This document shows, piece by piece, positions 1 through 14,127 of a DNA stretch of 14,127 bases. A program made the translations under genes and the position numbers. The DNA is from Azolla caroliniana. Taxonomy: Eukaryota > Plantae > Polypodiophyta. The notes beneath the pieces are model-generated. The model did not search any database. It saw only the letters and a program-made list of their open reading frames with translations, and was not told the origin of the DNA. The stretch lies in the NCBI GenBank assembly GCA_043228905.1, contig JBHGNT010000897.1, positions 1-14,127 on the forward strand, given 5' to 3'. The stretch's first letter is position 1. Each line of letters starts with the position of its first letter.

Positions 1-1699
1 ATAGCTTTTCCTTCGCCTGTATCACGTCCTCCGGCCTCCGCTCGAGTTGCCGAATCCGCGCCGCTAGCAACTCCTCCCGACTCATTTCGTCCTTCCAATC
101 TACCGCCGCCCACGAAGAAACCGTCCGTTCCACCGGCATGATCGGCTTTTGTCCGTACATTAGCTCCGCCGGCATGAACCCTGTCACCGAACTGTGCGTA
201 GTCCGGTCCGCCCATAGCGCGTAAGGAAGGAGTCACGGCCAATTCCTGACCTGCCCACCGCATGCATGCACCAACGCCTTTACAATCGGTCTGTGCCCAC
301 GTTCCACCTTTCCTTTCGCCTCCGGATTGTACGCCGTGGTGAGGGAGAGTTTGACGCCTAGCCGGTCGAACAACTCCTCGGCCTCCCGCGCATCCAGCTC
401 TCCCCGATCCGCCACGATCCTCCCAACGCACCCGTACCGACACACTAATTCTTCGATCAGGATTTGGCATACCGCCGCGGTTGTCTTGCTTTGCATTGCA
501 CGACCTTCCACCTGGTTCGTCATGTCTTCCCGTGCAAGCACCAGGTATCGCATCTGTCCTACCGCCATCGGCATTGTCACCAAGTCCACCATCCACTTGA
601 AATGGACCGTAGGCGGGTAGGTCGGGTGTAGCTCGGGTGTAGCTCGGGTGTAGCTCGTCTCGGTGTCGGACTACGGAGTGCACCTGACAGCTTTCGCAAG
701 TCGTTACGAACCGATGCACGTCCTGGTATAGCCCCGGCCACCAGTACTTCTCCTTTAGCTTCTCGAACGTGGCCCACGTTCTGCGGTGTTCGGCCCATGG
801 GCTCTCGTGGAATGCCGCCAATAGTTTCCTCTGCTCTTCTTTCTTTGCCACTACTCGGAGTGGGATGCCGCCTCTCTTCTTTGGGTGTTTCCATATGCAC
901 CCGTCCCGCATGAAGAATCGGTATGCCTTCCTCCGTATCCGGCTCGCCTCCTCTCTCGCCCATGCTGTGTCTGGCGTCATCGTCCATAGGAACCTCCCGA
1001 TTTGGAGCCACTCCCCGTCGTACCTGCTTTTGTCAAATTTGTTAAGCGCTAGAGTGTTCCATTTCCTTCTTGTCGTTACGTTAGCCGACCTGAAGAAGTC
1101 CTCGCCGACTTCTTCGTCTTCCGAAACCATGTCGTCTTCGTCGTTGAACCTTGCCCTCGAAAGCATGTTGGCCATGGTGTTGTCCTTTCCGGAGATGTGT
1201 CGTATCTCCGGGTTCAGGGACTTAATGTATGCAATCCACCGGAGCATTGCTAGGTCCGGCGTCGCGCATCCGGAAACCATGCCAAGTATCGGCAGGCAGT
1301 CCGTCTCGATAATCACCTCCGTCCGGATCAGATAATCCTTGTCGGCCTTGACCGCCGAAACGACACCCCAAAGTTCGCGCTTAACTTGGGCGTACCCTTG
1401 CTGCCGCTCGCTCAATACCTTCGCCCCGAACCGGATCGGGAATCGTACGCCGCCCTTGTCCTCCTGACTGTTTACCCACCCGATCCCGGTCGGGCTGGAG
1501 TCCACCGTTACGCAGATGGGAACATCCTTGCCGTAAACCGCTTTACGAAGAGTTGGCGCTGCCGTAAGCGCCTCCTTTAGTCTCCGAACCGACTCCGTGT
1601 GCTCCGTCCTCCACTCAAAGCTACGCCCCTTTTTCAATAATCCGTAGAGGGGTTCCGCGACATGTGCGTAGTGCGGGATCCAGATGTGGTAGAACGCGC
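1..1699 (-). pseudogene. pol: Ty3/gypsy pol of host element A, 3' part: RT thumb/connection, RNase H, integrase (HHCC finger and DDE core); runs off the window
   Basis: Minus-strand translation: AFYHIWIPHYAHVAEPLYGLLKKGRSFEW (from 1699), RNase H VDSSPTGIGW...RELWG...ETDCLP, integrase H..H..CESC, then core MVDLV..VADRG..KVERG (ORF 233-592). I found no stop in 658-1699. Lesions: 22-bp repeat-expansion frameshift at 622-657 and TGA at 233-235, after which homology continues (LLPYALWADRTTHSSVTG). RT-RH-INT order is the Ty3/gypsy arrangement. Confidence 0.93.
622..657. repeat. 11-bp tandem repeat (TCGGGTGTAGC x3) frameshifting the integrase
   Basis: Exact copies at 622, 633 and 644, plus TCG. Removing two copies (22 bp) puts the zinc-finger frame and core frame back in register. 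Confidence 0.95.
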
Positions 1700-1764
1700 T
1701 GTCGTGAAGGATTTGCTTCACGATATAAAAATAAACTTGAATATTGTATTAAGTAACATTTGAG

Positions 1765-1818
1765 AGACTTGAACCCGTAACCTCACACACCAAGGATAAA
1801 GCATATACCATTAGGATA
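1765..1818 (-). promoter_or_regulatory. Degenerate tRNA-like Pol III internal promoter (A box and B box), minus strand, in LTR (second copy at 4647-4700)
   Basis: Minus strand reads TATCCTAATGG...AGGTT ACGGG TTCAAGT C. The distance from the A-box T to the T-loop T is 45 nt, which is tRNA-like. Stems are not preserved. Confidence 0.5.
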
Positions 1819-2094
1819 AGTAATTTTCTATAGTTATATTTTTATCACAATACTTATGACATGTGTATCTTCATACATTAGAGCTTAGATGAGCATGATG
1901 GCTATCATGCATCACATGTAAAGCATGTGCGCCAAATGGCAATCATGCATGCCATGCATGCCATGCACCCCCATATCATCATATGCATGAGAGAACCTAT
2001 AAAGAGAGGCAAGGAATTAAGGGATGGATCAAGGGGAAAATAGGGTAATCGATCAAGAGAGAGTGAGAAAATAATACAATCAATTAAAGAAGAC

Positions 2095-2149
2095 TAGCTC
2101 ATTGGGTGGAGAACCTCTCGTTTCGAAGTTGAGGTCGTGGGTTCAAATC
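2095..2149 (+). promoter_or_regulatory. Degenerate tRNA-like Pol III internal promoter (A box and B box) in LTR (second copy at 4975-5029)
   Basis: TAGCTCATTGG (A box) ... AGGTC GTGGG TTCAAAT C (variable loop, T stem, B box). 47-nt T8-T54 spacing and partial D stem GCTC/GAGA; acceptor and anticodon stems do not pair. Confidence 0.65.
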
Positions 2150-2459
2150 AAGGGTCGATAGAGAATGTGTTCAGTTTGTGATCGAGGATTGTAAAGTTGG
2201 TAAAATATTATATTTTTAATATACATCATGTTTATATCATATACTCTTGTTCCTTGAATCATACTTTGTCTCAATCTTCTTTCTAGAATCATCTCTCCCT
2301 CTCTCGCACACACACACATTACTCGTAACTCTTCTTCTTACTATCCTTAACCACTCTATCATCACCATACAAGCCTTATTAAAAGTTAAGTTTCTTCAAC
2401 TCCCCTTAACCTTAGTCCCCGCGACTTCGTCGCACGAACCACAACTACCCCGACACATT

Positions 2460-2477
2460 TGGTGAACCCGACGTGAA
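2460..2477 (+). promoter_or_regulatory. Primer-binding site of element B, complementary to tRNA-Trp
   Basis: TGGTGAACCCGACGTGAA, 4 nt after the LTR; reverse complement of the plant cytosolic tRNA-Trp 3' end (...TTCACGTCGGGTTCACCA) as I recall it. Confidence 0.9.
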
Positions 2478-2494: not shown

Positions 2495-3427
2495 ATGGAG
2501 GAGCAAATGAGGCTTATGTGTACGATGATGGAACGAGTGATGCGGGAACAAGGGATGATGGCAAGCATCGACAAAGTCGTCGACAATATTCTCGCACGAG
2601 TAGGAATCTTCGAAGGTATAAATTTAACAAGATTTCTGAAGATTTATAATGAAGAAATGCTTAAACGTGGTGTCGACGAAGCTGCAAAAATTAATAGCTT
2701 TAGTCGAGTCACTGCGATTGGGCTACAAGAAAGGATCCAGGAGCTACAGAGGGAACATCAGACATGGGTGACTTTCGAAAGAGCATTGCTAAATGAATAC
2801 AACCTCAACGATATGTCAAGGATGACTAGGCGAGCCTTCATGGATTGGGTAGAGTCTAATAAACATTTAAGTGTTTTGGAAGTATTAAAAGAGTTTTCTG
2901 AAAGATTTGAGCAACTAAATGTTAGAGATAGAAATATAATAGTGCCAGATAAAGTCATATTGTTTCTACAAGCTACTAATATTAAAGACAGGAAGGACTT
3001 GGGAATGCTTTTAGAAGATCAAAATAGTCCAAGTGGACTTATCGAAGACTGGGAGGAGGTGAAAAGGGTGTGCGCCCATTTCTGCAAAAGAAAGTTATGG
3101 TTTATGGAGTTGCCCGACAGAAATGATGAAGAAATGGGGAATGAGTCGGGAGAAAAGAAAGTAGAAGAATCACTCTTACACGAATTGGTGAAAGGCATGA
3201 AAGACTTGTCGATCAAAGTGACGAAGCTAGAATCGGGACAAAGCTCGACTTCATCAAGGCAGGGAGGTAGAATGGTCCGAAGGTGTATGTGGTGTGATAG
3301 TATCGACCACCAGAAGCAAGATTGTCAAGAGCATAGGGATGCTCTTAATCATAATAAAATCTATTATCAAGATGGCAAGATTCACTCGACAGAGACTCGA
3401 CAACCACTTCAACTCAACTTTGGGTGA
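2495..3427 (+). CDS. gag: Gag (capsid-like region and CCHC zinc knuckle) of element B
   Basis: 310-aa ORF starting just after the PBS; CMWCDSIDHQKQDC = CX2CX4HX4C. Ends at a TGA that is in frame with the next ORF. Confidence 0.9.
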   Translation: MEEQMRLMCTMMERVMREQGMMASIDKVVDNILARVGIFEGINLTRFLKIYNEEMLKRGVDEAAKINSFSRVTAIGLQERIQELQREHQTWVTFERALLNEYNLNDMSRMTRRAFMDWVESNKHLSVLEVLKEFSERFEQLNVRDRNIIVPDKVILFLQATNIKDRKDLGMLLEDQNSPSGLIEDWEEVKRVCAHFCKRKLWFMELPDRNDEEMGNESGEKKVEESLLHELVKGMKDLSIKVTKLESGQSSTSSRQGGRMVRRCMWCDSIDHQKQDCQEHRDALNHNKIYYQDGKIHSTETRQPLQLNFG

Positions 3428-3445
3428 GGAGGAAGGAAAAAGCTA

Positions 3446-4543
3446 ATGGAAGATGCTGAGAGAGAAACGACTCAAGCGATACAATCCGTGGCAACCTTAG
3501 GATTGCGTGTAGAAGACTCATATGGTGGATCTGGCTTTTGGCAAGATGTGATGGATTATGCAAGAAAAGGGAAGGTTCGAGTGGATGAATTAAAAAGAGT
3601 GGGAGATGAAATACGAAACTTCACTGGATGGAATGATCCAGTAGACGCGCTATCAGCATTCGCCCAAGTGAATGCACAAGATGTACTAGTGGAAAAGAAG
3701 CAAAAGAGAGCTGAGGAGGATGATCCGGCAATGAAACACGAGACACAAGAACAACTTCAGAGAAGAGAGATGGAAAAGATTGCTCATGAGTCGAAAGAAG
3801 CTGATAAAGTAAAAGGGAAGACAAACCCAACTTTTAAGCTTGCTTCGGACACAGAAGTCACGACGGATATAAAACATGTCATGGAAGAAGTTACGAGAGA
3901 ATGTGCAGCAACAAGTCTCCAAGATTTGGATCATGAATCCATCAATATTGTAGGTGTAAAGAAGATAAATGATGTTGGGATTCATGAAGGGGATAGGAGT
4001 CATTATACAAAGAACCATTGGGCTCAAGCAACAACGGAGGCGCCTACAAAAATTACGGAGCAACAGATTCCTTGTATTGCTTTGATAGATCATGGATCAG
4101 AAATTAACATGATGTCATCGGAATGTTGTGCTCAAGGAAGGTGGCCAATCGATAAGAATCATGGGTCGAAGAAAAGAGTTACAACAGAGATGACGGAGGA
4201 TCAATTCGGAGCATGTCCCAGTGTGAAAGCAACAATGGGAGATGTGTCGGTGGATGAAAATTACTATGTGCAAGATGGATCAACCTACCCTGTCATCCTT
4301 GGTCAACCATACATCAGCGTAGTGAGTATGGAAACAAAGGATGGTGAACCATACATCAACGTAGTAAGGATGGAAAGAATTGTGATTAATGATGATTCAA
4401 CTTTCGCGAGGATCAAGAGTCGGGATGGAAGGAAGAAGGGCCATATCTTAACCATGATGCCTAACCATGAAAGAAACAAAGAATGCTTGAGGGGACATCC
4501 AGTTCAGAAACGGAATGAAGAGTTTTTCCAAGACTTTGGATGA
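3446..4543 (+). CDS. Gag C-terminal spacer and retroviral-type aspartic protease of element B (in-frame continuation of gag)
   Basis: ALIDHGSEINMMS (catalytic D-x-G) and PVILGQPY (ILG motif). Same frame as 2495-3427, separated only by TGA-GGRKKL. Colinear with element A's protease region. Confidence 0.88.
   Translation: MEDAERETTQAIQSVATLGLRVEDSYGGSGFWQDVMDYARKGKVRVDELKRVGDEIRNFTGWNDPVDALSAFAQVNAQDVLVEKKQKRAEEDDPAMKHETQEQLQRREMEKIAHESKEADKVKGKTNPTFKLASDTEVTTDIKHVMEEVTRECAATSLQDLDHESINIVGVKKINDVGIHEGDRSHYTKNHWAQATTEAPTKITEQQIPCIALIDHGSEINMMSSECCAQGRWPIDKNHGSKKRVTTEMTEDQFGACPSVKATMGDVSVDENYYVQDGSTYPVILGQPYISVVSMETKDGEPYINVVRMERIVINDDSTFARIKSRDGRKKGHILTMMPNHERNKECLRGHPVQKRNEEFFQDFG
4301..4384 (+). 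repeat. Diverged 42-bp (14-codon) tandem duplication in the protease
   Basis: GGTCAACCATACATCAGCGTAGTGAGTATGGAAAC vs GGTGAACCATACATCAACGTAGTAAGGATGGAAAG (GQPYISVVSME / GEPYINVVRME). Confidence 0.9.
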
Positions 4544-4569: not shown

Positions 4570-4581
4570 AGAGGGGGTGGG
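4570..4581 (+). promoter_or_regulatory. Polypurine tract of element B
   Basis: AGAGGGGGTGGG directly abutting the TG of the 3' LTR. Confidence 0.88.
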
Positions 4582-5335
4582 TGTCGTGAAGGATTTGCTT
4601 CACGATATAAAAATAAACTTGAATATTGTATTAAGTAACATTTGAGAGACTTGAACCCGTAACCTCACACACCAAGGATAAAGCATATACCATTAGGATA
4701 AGTAATTTTCTATAGTTATATTTTTATCACAATACTTATGACATGTGTATCTTCATACATTAGAGCTTAGATGAGCATGATGGCTATCATGCATCACATG
4801 TAAAGCATGTGCGCCAAATGGCAATCATGCATGCCATGCATGCCATGCACCCCCATATCATCATATGCATGAGAGAACCTATAAAGAGGCAAGGAATTAA
4901 GGGATGGATCAAGGGGAAAATAGGGTAATCGATCAAGAGAGAGTGAGAAAATAATATAATCAATTAAAGAAGACTAGCTCATTGGGTGGAGAACCTCTCG
5001 TTTCGAAGTTGAGGTCGTGGGTTCAAATCAAGGGTCGATAGAGAATGTGTTCAGTTTGTGATCGAGGATTGTAAAGTTGGTAAAATATTATATTTTTAAT
5101 ATACATCATGTTTATATCATATACTCTTGTTCCTTGAATCATACTTTGTCTCAATCTTCTTTCTAGAATCATCTCTCTCTCTCTCGCACACACACACATT
5201 ACTCGTAACTCTTCTTCTTACTATCCTTAACCACTCTATCATCACCATACAAGCCTTATTAAAAGTTAAGTTTCTTCAACTCCCCTTAACCTTAGTCCCC
5301 GCGACTTCGTTGCACGAACCACAACTACCCCGACA
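4582..5335 (+). repeat. 3' LTR of element B (754 bp)
   Basis: By eye it differs from the 5' LTR at three C/T sites (2077/4957, 2298/5178, 2431/5311) and one 2-bp GA indel after the TATA box. Confidence 0.97.
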
Positions 5336-6665
5336 ACGCCGACTTTTCCCCGGAGAAGGTGAGCCTTGCGCGCTCTAGTCTTTGCAGCACCTTCTCGCAG
5401 TCATCGATGTGGGACGCCAGGAAATTCCGACATCCGTCCGGCCCGATTGCCTCGTCCCTTTTCTCCACAGGGCATCCCTTGATCGGGATGTTGTCTAAGA
5501 ACGACATGGTGATGTCCGGGATACAATCCCTGAGCACTTTGTTCATCGCGTTCACCATGTGAGCCATTGAGTTCGTCCCTCCTTGTGGCAAGGTACATAT
5601 CCGCACTAGGCCGAGAGGAGTCCGCATCGTCCTAATGTCTCTGCTCTCCACGGCTAGTTGGAACTGATCGTACCTCGAGTACAGATCACCGACAGAATAG
5701 ATCGACCTTCCAGCGAAGGCCTCTGCGAACTCGTCTATGGTCGGTCCGATCCCTGCATTACGGATGGTCACCTTGTTGACCGGTTGTAGGTCCTGGATGA
5801 AGCGCAGTGTGCCGTTCTTCTTTGGCACCGTAAACCACCGATTCGAATACAGGGCACTCGACGGTTCGAGGATGCCCATCTCCACCTTTTGCTTTAGGAG
5901 CTCCATCAACTTCGGGATGTGAGCTCTTGGCACCGGAATCAGGATGAGATTCCACGGTACATGCGGTACCGTGAAGATCACCATCGGTTCGACAACTGTC
6001 GGGTCTACGCACCCGATCTCCTCTGGTGAGAATGCGAAAGCCTTCCCTTGCCTCCTGAGCATTCTCCGAAACCGGTCCTCCTCCGCCGGCAGTAGGAAGC
6101 CGCCCCCACCGACCTTGAGCTCCCATAGCGTTATATCGGTGAACTGGTGCCCTATGCCAGCCGGATTTCGTAAACTTGGGTCCGACGCGACCCCTTTTAT
6201 CCGCTCCTCGCTGCCCTCCGGCAAGGGTGCCGCGATTAGCCTCACCTTCCGGTCCACAGTCTTGTATTTCGTATCAACGCGGGCCGTGCGATCCGACCTG
6301 ATCCTTTCCTCGAAGTCTGCGATGACTTCGTACATTCCCATCGACCCTACCAGAACGGTCCAGTCTTCCCTAAGGTCTTCACCGATCACCTTTTGTAGTT
6401 CGCCCAAGGTGTCGTCAAAAGAGACCGCCTCCACGGTGCCGCTGATGTCCTCGTCGGGGAAGAGGATTCCACATCCCCTGAGCCGCTCCTTCGCTCGCTT
6501 CCTCTCCCTGCCATTGACGCTGGTTATAGTACAACCTCTGCTGTCGGAGAACCAAAATTTCCTACCTATGGTACAGGTCTTCTTCTGTACTGTACATTTG
6601 TGGGGTTCTTCCTTGTTGTCCGGACTATCGCGGCCCCACGCCTTGACAACCCTCTCTAAAAATCC
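5336..6665 (-). pseudogene. pol: Ty3/gypsy pol of element A, N-terminal part including reverse transcriptase; interrupted by element B
   Basis: WFTVPKKNGTLRFIQDLQPVN, GDLYSRYDQ, LPQG, FLDNIPIKG (YxDD-equivalent motif reads FLDN, so probably inactivated), ending GEKSA at the LTR. The frame is open upstream of the called GTG (6434) back to the slippery site at 6665. Confidence 0.93.
6600..6665 (-). promoter_or_regulatory. Putative -1 programmed ribosomal frameshift signal (slippery heptamer and pseudoknot) between gag-PR and pol of element A
   Basis: Minus strand G GAU UUU UAG; pol is in the -1 frame with no stop; downstream complementary pairs GUUGUC/GACAAC and GUGGGG/CCCCAC are interleaved. 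Confidence 0.7.
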
Positions 6666-7110
6666 CCTCGGGTTTCGCTGCCGAGGGCCTCGCGGTTACG
6701 CTCATGGTTTGGTCGCACCATTAGGAACTGGATCGAGTGACGCCCATCCTGGCTCTTGACTCTTGCATAGGCTGAACCGTTGTCCAGCACCTTGGTCTCC
6801 ATCCATGCCGCCGTGATATATGGCTCTCCTAGTATAACTGGATGCGAGGACGTCTCCTGCACGAAGAAGTGCTGGTCGATCTCGACATCGCCGATTTTCA
6901 CCCATACATTCGGACAGGCCCCATGTAGTTCTTCTGTGGCGCGTGTCGTTGCCCGTATCTTCCATCCATGCTTGGTGTACCAACGCCACCACCGGTTCCA
7001 GAACGTTGCCGATCCGTACAGGGGTTTCCGTAGTCGCCCTGGCCCAATGCGGCTTCGTGTAGTGGCTTCCCGCCAGCTCATCTTCCAGGGCTCCGTCTTC
7101 TAGGTGCGTG
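6656..7110 (-). pseudogene. End of gag and aspartic protease of element A; catalytic motif deleted, 5'-truncated
   Basis: HYTKPHWARATTE...EPVVALV, then a frame change at ~6978, then TKHGWKIRA...PVILGEPY...PNHERNRE...DF*. The DHGSEIN segment seen in element B is absent. Confidence 0.88.
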
Positions 7111-7743
7111 GTACTCCACGCGAGAGTGGAAAGGGAATCCGGCAAGAAGCTGAAAGCGATACGAGCGGATAACGGAGGGGAATACCGGGGGCAGTTCCAG
7201 GAGTACTGTCGCTCGAAGGGAATCCGACTCGAGTTTACTGTGCCGAAGACACCGGAACTGAACGGGCTGGCCGAGAGGATGAACCGGACCATAATGGAGA
7301 GGGTCCGGAGTATGCTGGCGCATGCGAAATTACCCAAGGGGTTTTGGGCTGAGGCAATGTCGATGGCGACATACGTGATAAACAGATCACCCTCAGTACC
7401 TTTGGACGGAGACACGCCGCAGAAAGTGTGGACCGGTAAGAAAGTGTCCTACCGGCATCTGAAGGTGTTCGGGTGTCTCGCATACGTGCATGTGGCAAAG
7501 GACCGGAGAGGAAAGCTAGATCCAAAGACCCGGCCATGCATATTCCTCGGTTACGGCGATGACGAGTTCGGCTACCGAGTATGGGACCCGGTCGACAAGA
7601 AGATATTCAGGAGTCGAGACATCATCTTCATGGAGGACAAGACACTCGCCGACTGGGAGTCGGAGAAGAAGGTAAATAGCTCCAAGTCGACCGGTGAGGA
7701 TCCACTCTACAAGGAGCAGTCCCGACCGGCAAGGGACCGGTAG
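7108..7743 (+). pseudogene. pol: Copia integrase (partial core and C-terminal GKGY-type region)
   Basis: IRADNGGEY...PELNGLAERMNRT...FWAEA...FGCLAYVH...CIFLGY...GYRVWD. A frameshift between 7698 and 7740 separates it from the RT frame; the first few codons overlap the junction with element A. Confidence 0.93.
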
Positions 7744-7829
7744 GCCTCGAGGATCCGGCCGAAGACGGTGAAGAAACAGAACCGGCCGAAGAAGATGAAA
7801 ACGATACCGGAACCGGCCCCGATCCCGAA

Positions 7830-9530
7830 ATGGATTCGGATGAAGAAGAATCGGAAGAACCGGTTACCGAAGCTCCGGAACGGAGATATCCTCTAAGAGA
7901 GAGAAGGGCCCCCCGGAGATTTCCGGAACCAGAGCACGTGCTGCTAACCGACGAGGGGGAGCCGGAGAGCTTTGAAGAAGCAAAACATGACACCCAGAGC
8001 CGCAGGTGGTTGAGTGCCATGCAGGACGAAATGGATTCCCTGCATGAGAACCACACATATGAACTTGTGGAGTTGCCGAAAGGAAAGCGGGCACTTCGAA
8101 ACAAGTGGGTGTTCAAGCTGAAACCGGGAGATGCCGGAAACCCCCCGAGATACAAAGCCAGGATCGTGGTGAAGGGGTTCCAGCAGAAGAAGGGCGTCGA
8201 CTTCGACGAGATATTTGCCCCGGTAGTGAAGATGACCTCCATCCGGACGGTGCTGAGCATAGCGGCAAGCATGGACCTCGAGGTAGAACAGATGGACGTG
8301 AAGACGGCATTCCTTCACGGTGACCTCGATGAAGAGATCTACATGCAGCAACCAGAAGGATTCGAGAAGAAAGGGAAGGAGCACCTGGTATGCCGGTTGA
8401 AGAAGAGCCTTTACGGACTGAAGCAGGCTCCCCGGCAATGGTACCGGAAGTTCGACTCCTTCATGACCGACGAAGGGTACCTCAAAACGCAGTCCGACCA
8501 CTGCGTGTTTGTGAAGAAGTTTGAAGGAGGACACTCTCTAATACTCCTCCTGTACGTGGACGACATGTTGATCGTCGGACGGGACCAGGTCAAGATCCGG
8601 ATGCTGAAGAAGGCTCTTCACCGAACCTTCTCAATGAAGGACCTGGGTCCGGCGAGACAAATACTAGGGATGCACATCATCCGGGACCGGAGCAAGAAGC
8701 AGTTGTGGCTGTCACAGGAGAAGTACGTGACGAAGGTGCTTCACCGGTTCAACATGTCGGAAGCAAGACCGGTCGGATCGACCCTCCCGGCAAACTGCAA
8801 GCTGTCCAGCAAGCAAAGTCCCAAGACAAAGGCTGAGAAGGAGGATATGATGAAAGTGCCGTATGCCTCAGCCGTCGGGAGCTTGATGTACGCCATGGTG
8901 TGTACGAGACCGGACATAGGATATGCAGTCGGAGTGGTGAGCCGGTACATGAGCAATCCCGGCAAAGAGCATTGGAACGCGGCCAAGTGGATACTTCGAT
9001 ACCTGAAGGGCACGGCAAACGTGTGCCTCCGATTCGGCTCCGGTAAACCCGAACTCGACGGTTTCACCGATTCGGATATGTCGGCTGATGCAGATACCAG
9101 CCGGTCCACATCAGGGTATGTGATGACGTATGCAGGGGGAGCTGTTTCGTGGCAGTCGAGGCTGCAGAAGACGGTTGCGTTGTCAACCACGGAGGCAGAG
9201 TACATGGCGGCTGTTGAAGCCGGCAAGGAAATAATATGGATGAAGGACTTCATTAGAGAGCTCGGTATCCGGCAGGAGGAGTACCGACTCTACTGCGACA
9301 GTCAGAGTGCAATCCACCTTGCGAAGAATGCGGCCTATCACTCCCGGACGAAGCACATCCAGCGAAGATATCACTGGATCCGGGAAAGGATAGAAGACAA
9401 GGAGTTCGTGCTGACAAAGATCCACACGGACGAGAACGGATCGGATATGCTGACCAAGGTGCTCACACCCGACAAGCTGGAAGCATGCCGGAAGAGGATC
9501 GGATTGGAAAGACATCTCATGCCGAAGTGA
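7830..9530 (+). CDS. pol: Copia reverse transcriptase and RNase H (3' part of a frameshifted pol)
   Basis: YKARIVVKGF, QMDVKTAFLHG, KSLYGLKQAPRQW, LLYVDDML, RPDI, TDSD, STTEAEY, YCDSQSAI, RTKHI. The frame is open from 7698. Confidence 0.96.
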   Translation: MDSDEEESEEPVTEAPERRYPLRERRAPRRFPEPEHVLLTDEGEPESFEEAKHDTQSRRWLSAMQDEMDSLHENHTYELVELPKGKRALRNKWVFKLKPGDAGNPPRYKARIVVKGFQQKKGVDFDEIFAPVVKMTSIRTVLSIAASMDLEVEQMDVKTAFLHGDLDEEIYMQQPEGFEKKGKEHLVCRLKKSLYGLKQAPRQWYRKFDSFMTDEGYLKTQSDHCVFVKKFEGGHSLILLLYVDDMLIVGRDQVKIRMLKKALHRTFSMKDLGPARQILGMHIIRDRSKKQLWLSQEKYVTKVLHRFNMSEARPVGSTLPANCKLSSKQSPKTKAEKEDMMKVPYASAVGSLMYAMVCTRPDIGYAVGVVSRYMSNPGKEHWNAAKWILRYLKGTANVCLRFGSGKPELDGFTDSDMSADADTSRSTSGYVMTYAGGAVSWQSRLQKTVALSTTEAEYMAAVEAGKEIIWMKDFIRELGIRQEEYRLYCDSQSAIHLAKNAAYHSRTKHIQRRYHWIRERIEDKEFVLTKIHTDENGSDMLTKVLTPDKLEACRKRIGLERHLMPK

Positions 9531-10323: not shown

Positions 10324-10649
10324 CTTACACCCCTATGTATCTACCCCCTCTTGTACTATTTAACCCCCTATGGGGGATGAATGAAAGATGAATGAATCAT
10401 TTCTCTCTATCTATCTCTCTTTTCATCTCTCTCTCTCTCTCTCTCTCTCTCCCCCTCAACGTTGAATCCCCTTGGGAGGGGGGTGGAGCCATTCTAGGCA
10501 CCACCCCCCCACCCCGCAATGCTTGTCAATGCACATGATCTCTCTCACCATCATACTCTTCATCATCTTTGCTATTTCACCATGTCTATCTTCGTCATCG
10601 TTAACCATCATCATCCTTAACCCTAACCCTAACTCTAAAACCTACAACA
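10324..10649 (+). repeat. 5' LTR remnant of element D; contains (TC)13 at 10426-10451
   Basis: Matches 12773-13098 at constant offset 2449 with one substitution seen (GGGGGATG vs GGGGAATG); ends CCTACAACA; does not begin with TG. Confidence 0.9.
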
Positions 10650-10654
10650 CCTTT

Positions 10655-10665
10655 TGGCGACCACA
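10655..10665 (+). promoter_or_regulatory. Putative primer-binding site of element D (tRNA-Arg-like)
   Basis: TGGCGACCACA, 5 nt after the LTR end; matches 11 nt of the complement of plant tRNA-Arg(UCG) 3' end (...TGTGGTCGCCA) as recalled. Confidence 0.65.
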
Positions 10666-12170
10666 ACGGCGGACCCCCTTTGATGAAGAAGTCCAAGAAG
10701 TACAGATGGAGGAATGCATGAATGGCAACAATGGTTGTGCGAGGTTGCGATTAGTGTCAATGTGCGGGTTTCCGATGCGGTTAGCGACAATGTGCGTGTT
10801 TTTGAAAGCGTGGTGCAAGATGCACGGCTGTACAAACTGCGATGCAGTGGGAACCGGTGCCAGCACGACTGGAAAGAGAAGCCCACCAGGAGACTGCAGA
10901 GAAAGTCGCAGTGTGTGGAGCGGAGACCGGCAGGATGTGCTGAGAATGCACAAGAGGTGGTTCTAAAAGTAGCAACACAGAGAGAGTCGGAACCAGAATC
11001 GGAACCAGAACCGGAGCCGGTTAACACCGAAGGGCCGAAGAAGACGGAGGAGATGCAGATGCAAACCAGACATCAACCAATAGTGCTCGAAAGATACGGA
11101 CGGATGCACTAGACAAAGGTGACCAAAAAGACACAAGACACAATAGGATGGGTCAAATGGGCCGAACAGGCGACCACACAGACGGACAGACCAGACACAC
11201 GATTGGAAGACAGTGGGACGACGGCCGGACAGAGCCGAAGAGCGATAGAGACGATTTCCGAAATGCACAGCCACGACAATGGCAACAGCCAAATGATGGG
11301 ACATGGACACCGAAAAGCAACGGAGCCGGCGATGAGGACAGAGCCGCCGAAAAGCGAAGGAGACGATGACAACGATGAATAGCAATTCAAGCGGTCGGAT
11401 AGGCCGGAGAGTGACCATACATGAGCAATCGGAGCGGCCCGAGAAACGACTGGACAACAACCAGAACAGCGACACCGCCGAAAAGCGACAAGAATGGCCG
11501 GAGAACCGACGGCCAGAACGGCGATGACGTTGAAACGACGGGCCGGACAGACAATAACGGCCGAATTTGACTGACTGACCGGACGGAGTCGGAGACACAG
11601 ACAAACAGCCGAGAACGGACGGGCCGAACAGCAACGATTGGAGCGGCAGGATGATGCGGTAGCAGGTGTAAGGACCGGAAAGAGACGGACCACCACGGTT
11701 GGGCAACGGAAATGACGGCGGCAGCACAAAGAAGGAGATGACGTGCAAGCAAAGGGAGAGTGACGGTCGTGTTTCCTCCCTACCCCGAAACACCAAAATA
11801 GAACAAGAAGAAGTGGAAGAAACAAAGGAAGAAAGAGAGAAGATTTGCAGAAGACATCAAACAAGAAGAACTCGCAAAGAAAGAAAGAAGAGAAACGATG
11901 GAACAAAGAGGAAAGAGAAGCACCATTAGCAGTGGAAGAACAGAGAAAAGGAAATGAAAGACAAGAAGAACAGAAGATGCAACGGTTAACACCAAGAAGA
12001 AGGAAGCACGCAAGAGTAGAAGACTAGAGAAGACGCAAAATGTAAGGGGAAAAAAAAAAAAATGTAAGAAAATGAGAAGAAGACAAACAGAAAAATGGAA
12101 AAAATGACCTAAAAGTAAAAGTGAAATTATAGATGAAACCGAAAAACAAGAGAGAGGAAAAAAGAGAAGA

Positions 12171-12286
12171 GAGGGGCATTTGTGAGATTTTAAAAACTTG
12201 AGGTTAGCAAATGAAATTTCAAAACCGTGAGGGTACGGAATGAAATTTTAGAAATTTGAGGGTATAATACATCATTTTAAAAACTC
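12171..12286 (-). repeat. 4 x 29-bp diverged tandem array resembling a Mutator-like (MULE) terminal inverted repeat
   Basis: Units start GAGG at 12171, 12200, 12229 and 12258, with consensus like GAGGGTA...ATGAAATTTTAAAAACTT. The minus strand begins GAGTTTTT. No partner TIR found. Confidence 0.65.
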
Positions 12287-12629
12287 ATCAACTTGAATGA
12301 AATCAATGTAATTGAATCACGATAACTCACAAAATAGAAAGAAGAACACACATACACACAATGTTATTTTAGACCCATGACGAAGTTCGTAAGCCGACAG
12401 AACGAGAATGTTGTGTCGCGGAAAGATTTGCTGACCGACAAAGATGTTCGAGTCAAGCACTCCGATCGAGGGAGTCGATCGTTGAAAGGACCGATGGAAG
12501 TTCCGGTCGAAGAAATATCATCATCAAGGCATGTGGGATCGACGTGCAAGGCACTCTCCCACGGGCGTGCCATATTGTGTTACCCCGTACGAGATTTATG
12601 GAGAGTCAATGTGATGAGCGAGGGTCGAA

Positions 12630-13098
12630 TGTTATCATGATGTTGTTGTGTATGTGTAGGGGACATAAATGTAATTGTGAGTCTATACGTATGTGAACAC
12701 ATGCACACGTGTGTGCATGTGGATGGATACGAGGAGGTGCGAGTGAGTGTCCAGTATGAATGCTCGAGGGGGCTTACACCCCTATGTATCTACCCCCTCT
12801 TGTACTATTTAACCCCCTATGGGGAATGAATGAAAGATGAATGAATCATTTCTCTCTATCTATCTCTCTTTTCATCTCTCTCTCTCTCTCTCTCTCTCTC
12901 CCCCTCAACGTTGAATCCCCTTGGGAGGGGGGTGGAGCCATTCTAGGCACCACCCCCCCACCCCGCAATGCTTGTCAATGCACATGATCTCTCTCACCAT
13001 CATACTCTTCATCATCTTTGCTATTTCACCATGTCTATCTTCGTCATCGTTAACCATCATCATCCTTAACCCTAACCCTAACTCTAAAACCTACAACA
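12630..13098 (+). repeat. 3' LTR of element D (5' boundary tentative: 12630, 12641 or 12644)
   Basis: 12773-13098 duplicates 10324-10649. Candidate TGTT start follows a weak purine tract GAGCGAGGGTCGAA; ends AACA. Confidence 0.7.
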
Positions 13099-14127
13099 AA
13101 TGGAACCTGGGACATGGTTGACGCACCGAAAGGTGTGAAGCCAATCGGATGTAAGTGGGTATACAATGTTAAGTACAACACCGACAACTCGGTCAACCGA
13201 TACAAGGCCAGGTTGGTAGCGAAAGGCTACGCACAGAAGCACGACGTGGACTATCATGAGCTTGGAACGCAAAGATTACGCAACAGTTGTGTAGGATGGG
13301 GTTTGCGCCGTCGAAATCAGACTCTTCTCTATTTGTTCGGCAAGGACAATATGGACCGGTCAGTTTGCTCTTGTACGTTGATGATTTAGTCATCGCCGGT
13401 GCCGACCTTGACGAAATCCGCTGCGTGAAGTCTCGGCTTGCGGCATTGTTTGAAATGATGGATCTCGGGGACCTTCATTACTTCCTCGGGATCGAAGTGA
13501 TCCGTACCCCCGAAGGCATATTGATCAGCCAACGTCATTATGCGCTGAATATGCTCTTCAAGTTCGGGATGACAAACTGTAAGCCCATCTCGACCCCTCT
13601 GGATAGAAACCCGAAGCTTCGCCCAGATTCAGGCAAGGCGTGTGACCCGACACGGTTCTTACAGATTGTTGGAAGCCTCATCTATTTGACTATTACTCGG
13701 CCGGACCTCAGTTACCCGGTTGGCATGATCAGTCAATTCATGTCGCAGCCTACGGCCGAACACTTTCAGTGCGTGCAACGGATACTTCGATATGTAAGCG
13801 GCACGAAAGACATGACGTTGCTATATCGAGCTGGAGTAGCCGAACAGTTAGTCGACTACTCGGATGCCGATTGGGCCGGAAATGACCACGATCGTCGATC
13901 CACATCTGGATACACATTCTCATTAGGAAGTGTGGCGATTACGTGGAGCAGCAAGAAGCAGCCGACAGTAGCATTGTTGAGCACGGAGGCCGAATATCGA
14001 GGGGCGATTGTCGTTACGTGCGAAGTCATTTGGTTGAAACGGATATTACGGGATCTGTAGGTAGAGGTGTTTGATCCGACGATGATCCATTGCGACCACC
14101 TTAGCAATATTCACCTTGCAAAGAACC
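13099..14127 (+). pseudogene. pol: Element E: degenerate Ty1/copia RT and RNase H fragment, a different family from element C
   Basis: NGTWDMV...PIGCKWVY...RYKARLVAKGY...VDYHE, internal deletion/frameshift at ~13260, AWNAKI...LLYVDDLV...TRPDL...YSDADWAG...STEAEY, TAG at 14058-14060, then CDHLSNIHLAKN to the window end. Confidence 0.95.

What the first reader, a model, noticed from the sequence alone, without database searches (positions are those of the whole stretch)
1765..2149. Each LTR carries two outward-facing tRNA-like Pol III promoter modules flanking the Pol II promoter
Seen: plus-strand TAGCTCATTGG...AGGTCGTGGGTTCAAATC (2095-2149, ~95 nt after the TATA box) and minus-strand TATCCTAATGG...AGGTTACGGGTTCAAGTC (1818-1765), both with tRNA A-B spacing but no cloverleaf, duplicated in the 3' LTR. 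Established: Cassandra TRIMs carry 5S-derived Pol III promoters in their LTRs, and TFIIIC-bound B boxes can act as chromatin barriers. Inference: a tRNA-based analogue, in which the modules either drive Pol III transcription or insulate the LTR promoter from the heterochromatin it inserts into. This is the best candidate here for an undescribed system.
Basis: partly seen in the sequence, partly recalled or inferred. Interest (0 to 1): 0.78.

Follow-up and report, generated by a model that had tools for sequence, protein, structure and literature searches.

The report
tRNA promoter boxes in plant LTRs
The end-repeats of an abundant plant jumping-gene family carry two back-to-back, worn copies of tRNA-gene promoter boxes on either side of a predicted ordinary promoter; they are unlikely to copy the element itself and likely serve as landing sites for the tRNA transcription factor TFIIIC, a twist on the already described Helenus elements, though they may be mere relics.

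Summary
Observation confirmed. A/B-box pairs with tRNA spacing lie at +2095-2149 and -1818-1766 and again in the 3' LTR; 0 of 20,000 shuffles give two. The element is a young 3.6-kb gag-protease, pol-less derivative of a Phygy-like gypsy family; a relative with an intact pol frame (L008) carries two tandem copies of the minus module, one in exact tRNA register. So the modules are tRNA-derived and shared across the family, not stray SINE insertions. They are unlikely to make the genomic RNA: each meets a T5 inside the LTR. Evidence for selection is mixed: the plus B box is identical in L005 (11/11) while its spacer is not (20/33), but the boxes are no better kept than the LTR overall (p=0.54) and one subfamily has a mutated minus B box. 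The idea of a tRNA analogue of Cassandra is already in print (Helenus, PMC10886601), and this scan noted tRNA boxes in LTRs of other genomes. New here: long coding elements, opposed self-terminating modules, variable copy number. Best reading: TFIIIC sites bracketing the Pol II promoter (0.45); neutral relics 0.33. No expression or binding data. New variant; interest 0.42.

The parts
1700..2455 (+). 5' LTR, 756 bp, TG...CA
   Evidence: differs from the 3' LTR by 3 substitutions and one 2-nt indel
1766..1818 (-). Minus tRNA-like module: A box 1818-1808, 32-nt spacer with TTG at tRNA positions 34-36, B box 1775-1766
1727..1731 (-). T5 run, predicted Pol III terminator of the minus module (about 100-nt unit)
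   Evidence: function inferred
1906..1989 (.). Cluster of 7 CATGCA/TGCATG motifs, inside the best-kept part of U3; likely Pol II enhancer core
   Evidence: positions; 74-nt identical run 1867-1940 with L005; RY/Sph name recalled
1998..2003 (+). TATAAA, predicted Pol II TATA box
   Evidence: TATAAA kept in L002 and L005; use untested
2095..2149 (+). Plus tRNA-like module: A box 2095-2105, 34-nt spacer, B box 2140-2149; predicted to lie inside the Pol II transcript (R region)
2213..2217 (+). T5 run, predicted Pol III terminator of the plus module (about 130-nt unit)
   Evidence: function inferred
2460..2477 (+). Primer-binding site; complement is the small RNA listed as miR894/gypsy PBS complement; tRNA-Trp identity recalled
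2495..3427 (+). gag-like frame ending in a stop; no Pfam match; relative P0001 (87% identical) is open across this point
3428..4543 (+). Protease-like frame (LIDHGSE motif read directly; no Pfam match); pol absent: about 3.4 kb present in L008 is missing before the PPT
4570..4581 (+). Polypurine tract, same as in L004 and L008
4582..5335 (+). 3' LTR, 754 bp
4648..4700 (-). Minus module, 3' LTR copy
4975..5029 (+). Plus module, 3' LTR copy
1696..1699 (+). Left target flank GCGC (NCGN type)
5336..5339 (+). Right target flank ACGC (NCGN type; one mismatch to the left flank)

Best explanation
The two modules are tRNA-derived A/B-box units fixed in the LTR of a Phygy-like gypsy family, and they likely act as TFIIIC landing sites that bracket a predicted Pol II promoter rather than as the element's own promoter. 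Shown: position, opposite orientation, tRNA register, presence in other family LTRs including a pol-bearing one, tandem duplication of the minus unit in one subfamily, loss of the cloverleaf, T runs inside the LTR. Inferred: two separate captures (tRNA genes or SINE heads; the minus one from a TTG-anticodon, Gln-like parent), spread by the normal copying of LTRs; genomic RNA made by Pol II from the TATA at 1998; TFIIIC binds the B boxes and at most short 100-130-nt Pol III RNAs are made that end inside the LTR; the benefit would be an open, bounded promoter in the CG-rich transposon DNA into which the family inserts.
For: Modules far above chance. 6 of 8 metagenome loci are family LTRs and all 6 carry the minus B-box region. 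L008's second module meets 6/6 A-box, 8/8 B-box and 4/4 non-box tRNA invariants, has a perfect 5-bp T stem and folds with z -2.28; the other copies have lost the stem but keep the box cores. A-box core (T8, A9, A14, G18, G19) kept in 6 of 7 minus copies that cover it; GGTTCAA in 6 of 9. Plus module against L005: B box 11/11 identical, A 8/11, spacer 20/33; boxes versus spacer p=0.037. In 157 contigs of two DNA runs laid on 2070-2200, 10 places varied at 10% or more, 0 of them in the B box (p=0.066 within 2120-2170), and diverged contigs of both runs begin to fit exactly at 2139. Insertion sites are NCGN at 5 of 5 readable 5' junctions (window, L001, L002, L005, L007) and this copy sits in CpG-rich gypsy DNA (o/e 1.17). 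Pol III complexes are barriers in fission yeast, independent of orientation (PMC2040200, abstract).
Against: Boxes are no better kept than the rest of the LTR between the window and L005 (3/22 versus 116/734 differences, p=0.54); the contrast comes from an unusually variable plus spacer (p=0.0007 against the rest), and 15 stretches of 11 nt or more are identical in that pair. Minus boxes versus spacer over four full copies: p=0.074. The subfamily of L002, L005, L007 has T54 changed to C in the minus B box and a weaker plus A box; L004's second unit has lost its A box; L001 and L004's first unit lack C61. Module regions had less contig cover than LTR ends and the CATG-rich core in all four runs (the tool warns that this depth is no copy number). 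The tests are few, post hoc, uncorrected and on related copies. [quoted passage not shown] No binding, chromatin or RNA data.
Confidence: 0.45

Rival explanations
1. The modules are neutral relics: tRNA/SINE heads that landed in an ancestral LTR and hitch-hike because each replication copies one LTR onto both ends. They no longer bind anything that matters.
For: Box divergence equals LTR average (p=0.54); a whole subfamily has a mutated minus B box (3 of 9 copies); A box lost in L004's second unit; SINE insertion into an LTR is the origin proposed for Helenus, Ajax and Cassandra (PMC10886601); box-kept/stem-lost pattern could predate capture.
Against: B box intact across a spacer that is 39% diverged; further spacer variants rejoin exactly at the B box; T stem intact in one copy and lost in others while cores persist; two unrelated modules (only the 8-nt B core aligns) kept in one LTR and the whole unit duplicated in L004 and L008.
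Confidence: 0.33
2. The modules are working Pol III genes whose 100-130-nt RNAs are the product, as with the Pol III microRNA cassettes in foamy-virus LTRs; the RNAs would tune silencing of the element (the minus RNA is antisense to U3).
For: Each unit has A box, B box, an AT-rich upstream stretch and a downstream T run, the parts of plant tRNA genes (PMC11700998, passages); foamy-virus LTRs hold box-dependent Pol III units (PMC3993851, passages).
Against: Predicted transcripts fold no better than shuffles (z +0.40, +0.61); transcribed spacers vary most; T runs of 4 or more are common in this LTR (3 on plus, 5 on minus), so a nearby terminator is expected by chance.
Confidence: 0.12
3. The plus module acts in the RNA, as a tRNA-like handle in the repeated R region for packaging, strand transfer or reverse-transcriptase binding.
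For: It lies about 65-120 nt after the predicted Pol II start, so would be in the genomic RNA (position; start inferred).
Against: No conserved fold; T stem unpaired; the longest match to the PBS complement is only the 7-8-nt T-loop core; cannot explain the minus module.
Confidence: 0.05
4. As in Cassandra and as proposed for Helenus, the plus module is the promoter by which Pol III makes the LTR-to-LTR RNA that is reverse-transcribed.
For: Sense orientation in the LTR; the window's element is non-autonomous; box motifs fit those given for Helenus.
Against: 9 runs of 4 or more T lie between the two plus modules, the first at 2213 before the PBS; the unit would be 2.9 kb against 311-1263 bp for Helenus; gag and pol of relatives need a capped Pol II mRNA.
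Confidence: 0.03

Closest known systems
Helenus / TRIMp3 (Kojima 2024, PMC10886601; parts 1-4 of 6 read, supplement searched for five terms)
   Same: tRNA-derived A and B boxes inside LTRs, no functional cloverleaf, PBS and PPT present, origin likely by SINE or tRNA insertion; Pol III use unproven in both.
   Different: Helenus are non-coding TRIMs of 311-1263 bp with one tRNA-like part; the only plant case is Selaginella (120-bp LTR, 5-bp TSD). Here 756-bp LTRs, a 3.6-kb coding element and a pol-bearing relative, two opposed modules (three likely where the minus one is doubled), T5 stops inside the LTR, and a TATA box between them.
Cassandra (5S-derived TRIM; seen only through PMC10886601)
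   Same: Pol III-type internal promoter carried in each LTR of a plant retroelement.
   Different: 5S type, short non-coding TRIM, transcript runs LTR to LTR; here tRNA type and unable to span the element.
Phygy, non-chromovirus Ty3/gypsy (Neumann 2019, PMC6317226; passages and one supplement row read)
   Same: 4-bp NCGN target, tRNA-Trp PBS in 81%, compact polyprotein; gypsy domain order RT-RH-IN in L008.
   Different: Described from Physcomitrella; no A/B modules mentioned in the passages seen; phylogenetic placement not tested.
Foamy-virus LTR Pol III miRNA cassettes (PMC3993851, passages read)
   Same: Self-contained A/B-box Pol III units with T terminators inside the LTR of a Pol II-driven retroelement.
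   Different: There the RNAs are stable hairpins shown by experiment; here no hairpin, tRNA ancestry, plant host.
tDNA/TFIIIC chromatin barriers of yeasts (PMC2040200 abstract; PMC9540200 and PMC13578239 passages)
   Same: Boxes that could recruit TFIIIC/Pol III at both edges of an active promoter; orientation need not matter.
   Different: Host chromosome elements in fungi and animals; not described in plants, nor, in my searches, as cargo of a plant retrotransposon LTR.

Membership tests
Helenus / TRIMp3 | tRNA-derived sequence with A and B boxes in the LTRs | tested here: met
   L008 copy in exact tRNA register
Helenus / TRIMp3 | TRIM: short (under about 1.0-1.3 kb) and non-coding | tested here: not met
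   3,636 bp with gag and protease frames; pol-bearing relative
Helenus / TRIMp3 | PBS and PPT between two LTRs | tested here: met
Helenus / TRIMp3 | 5-bp TSD in plant and fungal members | tested here: not met
   flanks fit a 4-bp NCGN target, with one mismatch
Helenus / TRIMp3 | LTR-to-LTR Pol III transcript possible | tested here: not met
   9 T runs between the plus modules, first before the PBS; predicted, not assayed
Cassandra | 5S rRNA-derived sequence in the LTR | tested here: not met
   no Rfam 5S match at E<=10
Phygy (non-chromovirus gypsy) | 4-bp NCGN target site | tested here: met
   5 of 5 readable 5' junctions NCGN; the duplication itself is imperfect in the window
Phygy (non-chromovirus gypsy) | tRNA-Trp PBS | tested here: inconclusive
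   complement listed as a gypsy PBS small RNA; Trp identity recalled, not from a call; Phygy row
Phygy (non-chromovirus gypsy) | Gypsy domain order, no chromodomain | tested here: met
   L008 pol: RVT_1, RT_RNaseH, Integrase_H2C2, rve; no chromo family among 6 Pfam matches at E<=0.1
Phygy (non-chromovirus gypsy) | RT/RH/INT phylogeny within the Phygy clade | not testable with these tools
   no reference set of named plant lineages on hand
Free tRNA-SINE family | Copies in unrelated flanks with tail and TSD | tested here: inconclusive
   plus module: 1% (X2) and 6% (X13) of laid contigs run on unlike, and the 15 of 35 loose ends shown read like LTR variants; only relatives 80% alike or more are seen; no whole genome
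Functional tRNA gene | Cloverleaf found by ARAGORN or Rfam | tested here: not met
TFIIIC/Pol III chromatin barrier | TFIIIC or Pol III occupancy and box-dependent block of silencing | not testable with these tools
   needs ChIP and reporter assays

The most novel reading that the evidence does not exclude
A plant gypsy lineage that inserts into CG-rich transposon DNA has captured tRNA promoters twice and uses them as a portable pair of TFIIIC/Pol III chromatin barriers around its own Pol II promoter, tuning their number by duplication: a self-insulating LTR and the first Pol III barrier in plants.
Probability: 0.2. Interest if true: 0.78.

Novelty: new variant of a known kind. Interest (0 to 1): 0.42.

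Why it matters
tRNA-type boxes in LTRs are known from short non-coding TRIMs, where they are thought to be the promoter. Here they sit in long LTRs of coding gypsy elements, where length and T runs argue against that job, so if they are kept by selection they do something else. A barrier role would show how a retrotransposon stays active inside silent chromatin and would give a direct test of whether Pol III factors bound heterochromatin in plants, which a 2026 review lists as undescribed. The natural variants (intact, B-box-mutated, doubled) make the comparison easy. If neutral, the case is a footnote that extends Helenus-like captures to autonomous plant elements.

Tried and rejected
No whole genome is held, so copy numbers and a family tree could not be made. 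ARAGORN and Rfam found no tRNA in the window; in L008 130-379 the T arm matched the tRNA clan weakly (tmRNA, E=0.025, under the gathering score). BLASTN against phages gave only non-significant matches (E 0.2-7), many under annotated tRNAs, and did not name a parent tRNA. Searches for more relatives gave nothing: viral contigs, prokaryote genomes; the rest of the L008 and L004 contigs is not held, so the plus module of that subfamily was not seen. L003 and L006 were dropped as chance bacterial matches of the 20-mer (no BLAST match to the element). No RNA holder listed; X21 laid 0 contigs and X19 one, probably DNA: no statement on expression. The segment labelled TATA was misplaced and is not used. 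Self-priming by the modules rejected. A landing-pad role (other elements inserting upstream of the boxes, noted by this scan in a fungus) has no support in the window: nothing is inserted in either LTR; not tested further. Literature searches that found no report of opposed A/B modules in LTRs of coding plant elements: (listings only, open-licence library; Repbase entries and subscription papers not seen).

Full report
Observation. The LTRs are 1700-2455 and 4582-5335, TG...CA, differing by 3 substitutions and one 2-nt indel, so the insertion is young. A plus-strand A/B pair lies at 2095-2149 and a minus-strand pair at 1818-1766, both repeated in the 3' LTR; these four are the only B-box matches in the window. 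Two pairs arose in 0 of 20,000 dinucleotide shuffles, one pair in 7 (pattern relaxed after seeing the data). TATAAA is at 1998. Neither module is a tRNA by ARAGORN, Rfam or folding. The two modules share only the 8-nt B core, so they are likely separate captures.

The element. After the 5' LTR comes a PBS (2460-2477) whose complement is listed as a gypsy PBS small RNA, miR894 (PMC5846777, passages); that it is the 3' end of tRNA-Trp is recalled. Gag-like and protease-like frames follow, then the PPT and the 3' LTR; no RT or integrase. A metagenome scan with the first 20 LTR bases gave 8 loci, 6 of them family LTRs. L008 holds a 1,158-aa frame with RT, RNase H and integrase, is 78% identical to the window's protease region and 93% at the PPT end, with about 3.4 kb between them that the window's element lacks; the window's element is thus a pol-less derivative. 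L008 is an assembled contig and may merge copies. Junctions are NCGN at 5 of 5 readable 5' ends. A 4-bp NCGN target and tRNA-Trp PBS mark the Phygy clade (PMC6317226, passages and supplement row); I call it Phygy-like, without a tree. The host is a plant by these features; 'fern' comes only from unchecked notes of this scan. The family is abundant: 2,001, 2,707, 1,217 and 1,145 contigs of four runs under four organism codes laid on 1650-2500, a stretch that includes 50 bases of the neighbouring gypsy.

Ancestry of the modules. L008 and L004 carry the minus unit twice, 136 bp apart, and 'go-back' joints and letters between joints in the runs point to similar duplications in other copies. L008's second copy is in exact tRNA register: 6/6 A-box, 8/8 B-box and 4/4 non-box invariants, C-T-TTG-A in the anticodon loop and a perfect T stem, folding z -2.28. 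TTG at positions 34-36 is present in 8 of 8 minus copies that cover it (related copies), which points to a Gln(TTG)-like parent (inference from recalled tRNA numbering). The parent of the plus module is unresolved. For the plus module, 1% and 6% of laid contigs in two DNA runs run on into unlike sequence and the loose ends shown (15 of 35) read like LTR variants, so no free SINE family at 80% identity or more was seen; older SINEs are not excluded.

Are the boxes under selection? For: against L005 (637/756 identical) the plus B box is 11/11 identical, the A box 8/11, the spacer 20/33 (boxes versus spacer p=0.037); in 116 and 41 contigs of two runs 10 places varied, none in the B box (p=0.066), and diverged contigs rejoin at 2139; minus A-box cores persist in 6 of 7 copies and GGTTCAA in 6 of 9 while the T stem has decayed in most. 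Against: boxes differ at 3/22 sites against 116/734 for the rest of the LTR (p=0.54), the plus spacer being the outlier; minus boxes versus spacer p=0.074; the L002/L005/L007 subfamily has T54C in the minus B box; L004's second unit has no A box. The best-kept parts of the LTR are its ends and the CATG-rich core. The samples are small and related, and the tests uncorrected. Verdict: suggestive, not shown.

Mechanism. Pol III is unlikely to make the genomic RNA: nine T runs lie between the plus modules, the first at 2213 before the PBS, and the minus unit meets T5 at 1731; such runs are common in this AT-rich LTR, so they show a limit, not a design. The element most likely uses Pol II from the TATA at 1998 (inferred). 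That leaves TFIIIC binding at both edges of the promoter as the best functional reading (0.45), neutral hitch-hiking (0.33), functional short RNAs (0.12), an RNA-level role (0.05) and a Cassandra-like promoter (0.03). [quoted passage not shown]

Comparison and novelty. This element fails the Helenus tests of size, coding content, TSD and span, though it shares the boxes. Foamy-virus LTRs give a precedent for self-contained Pol III units in a Pol II LTR (PMC3993851, passages). A sugar-beet survey mentions Helenus only in passing (PMC13570524, passages). Six searches (listings) found no report of opposed A/B modules around the promoter of a coding plant LTR element; Repbase records and closed papers were not seen.

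Verdict. Real feature, new variant of a known kind, function open. Interest 0.42; 0.78 if the self-insulating LTR reading (probability 0.2) proves true.

Noticed in passing
window 1696-1699 and 5336-5339: The flanks are GCGC and ACGC, not a perfect duplication, and the gypsy pol into which the element inserted lacks about 45-48 codons (about 140 bp) at this junction relative to L008 pol; other copies of that gypsy continue normally. Possibly recombination between two nearby insertions or a two-site integration.
   Followed up: partly
window 1702-1723 and 2422-2434: Short perfect inverted repeats at both LTR ends (8-bp arms at the 5' end; 5-bp arms near the 3' end); the first 34 LTR bases are identical in all 7 aligned LTRs (20 of them by search design).
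   Followed up: no
window 1906-1989: Seven CATGCA/TGCATG motifs (RY/Sph-like, name recalled) in about 85 bp, against 11 in the 12.6 kb outside the LTRs; better conserved than the A/B boxes. Could tie expression to B3-domain factors.
   Followed up: partly
window 1-1699 and 5336-7000 (minus strand): The element is nested in a GC-rich (57%) gypsy whose pol is 48-67% identical to the AT-rich (40% GC) L008 pol: two related lineages with very different base composition in one genome.
   Followed up: no
window 7063-9530, 10324-13098, 13260-14060: A copia integrase-RT fragment, a second young LTR pair (326 bp aligned, 99.7% identical) with no B-box match, and another copia RT fragment.
   Followed up: no
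L004 1263-1512: This 3' LTR breaks off inside its second minus module, between the B and A boxes, and runs into unrelated sequence.
   Followed up: no
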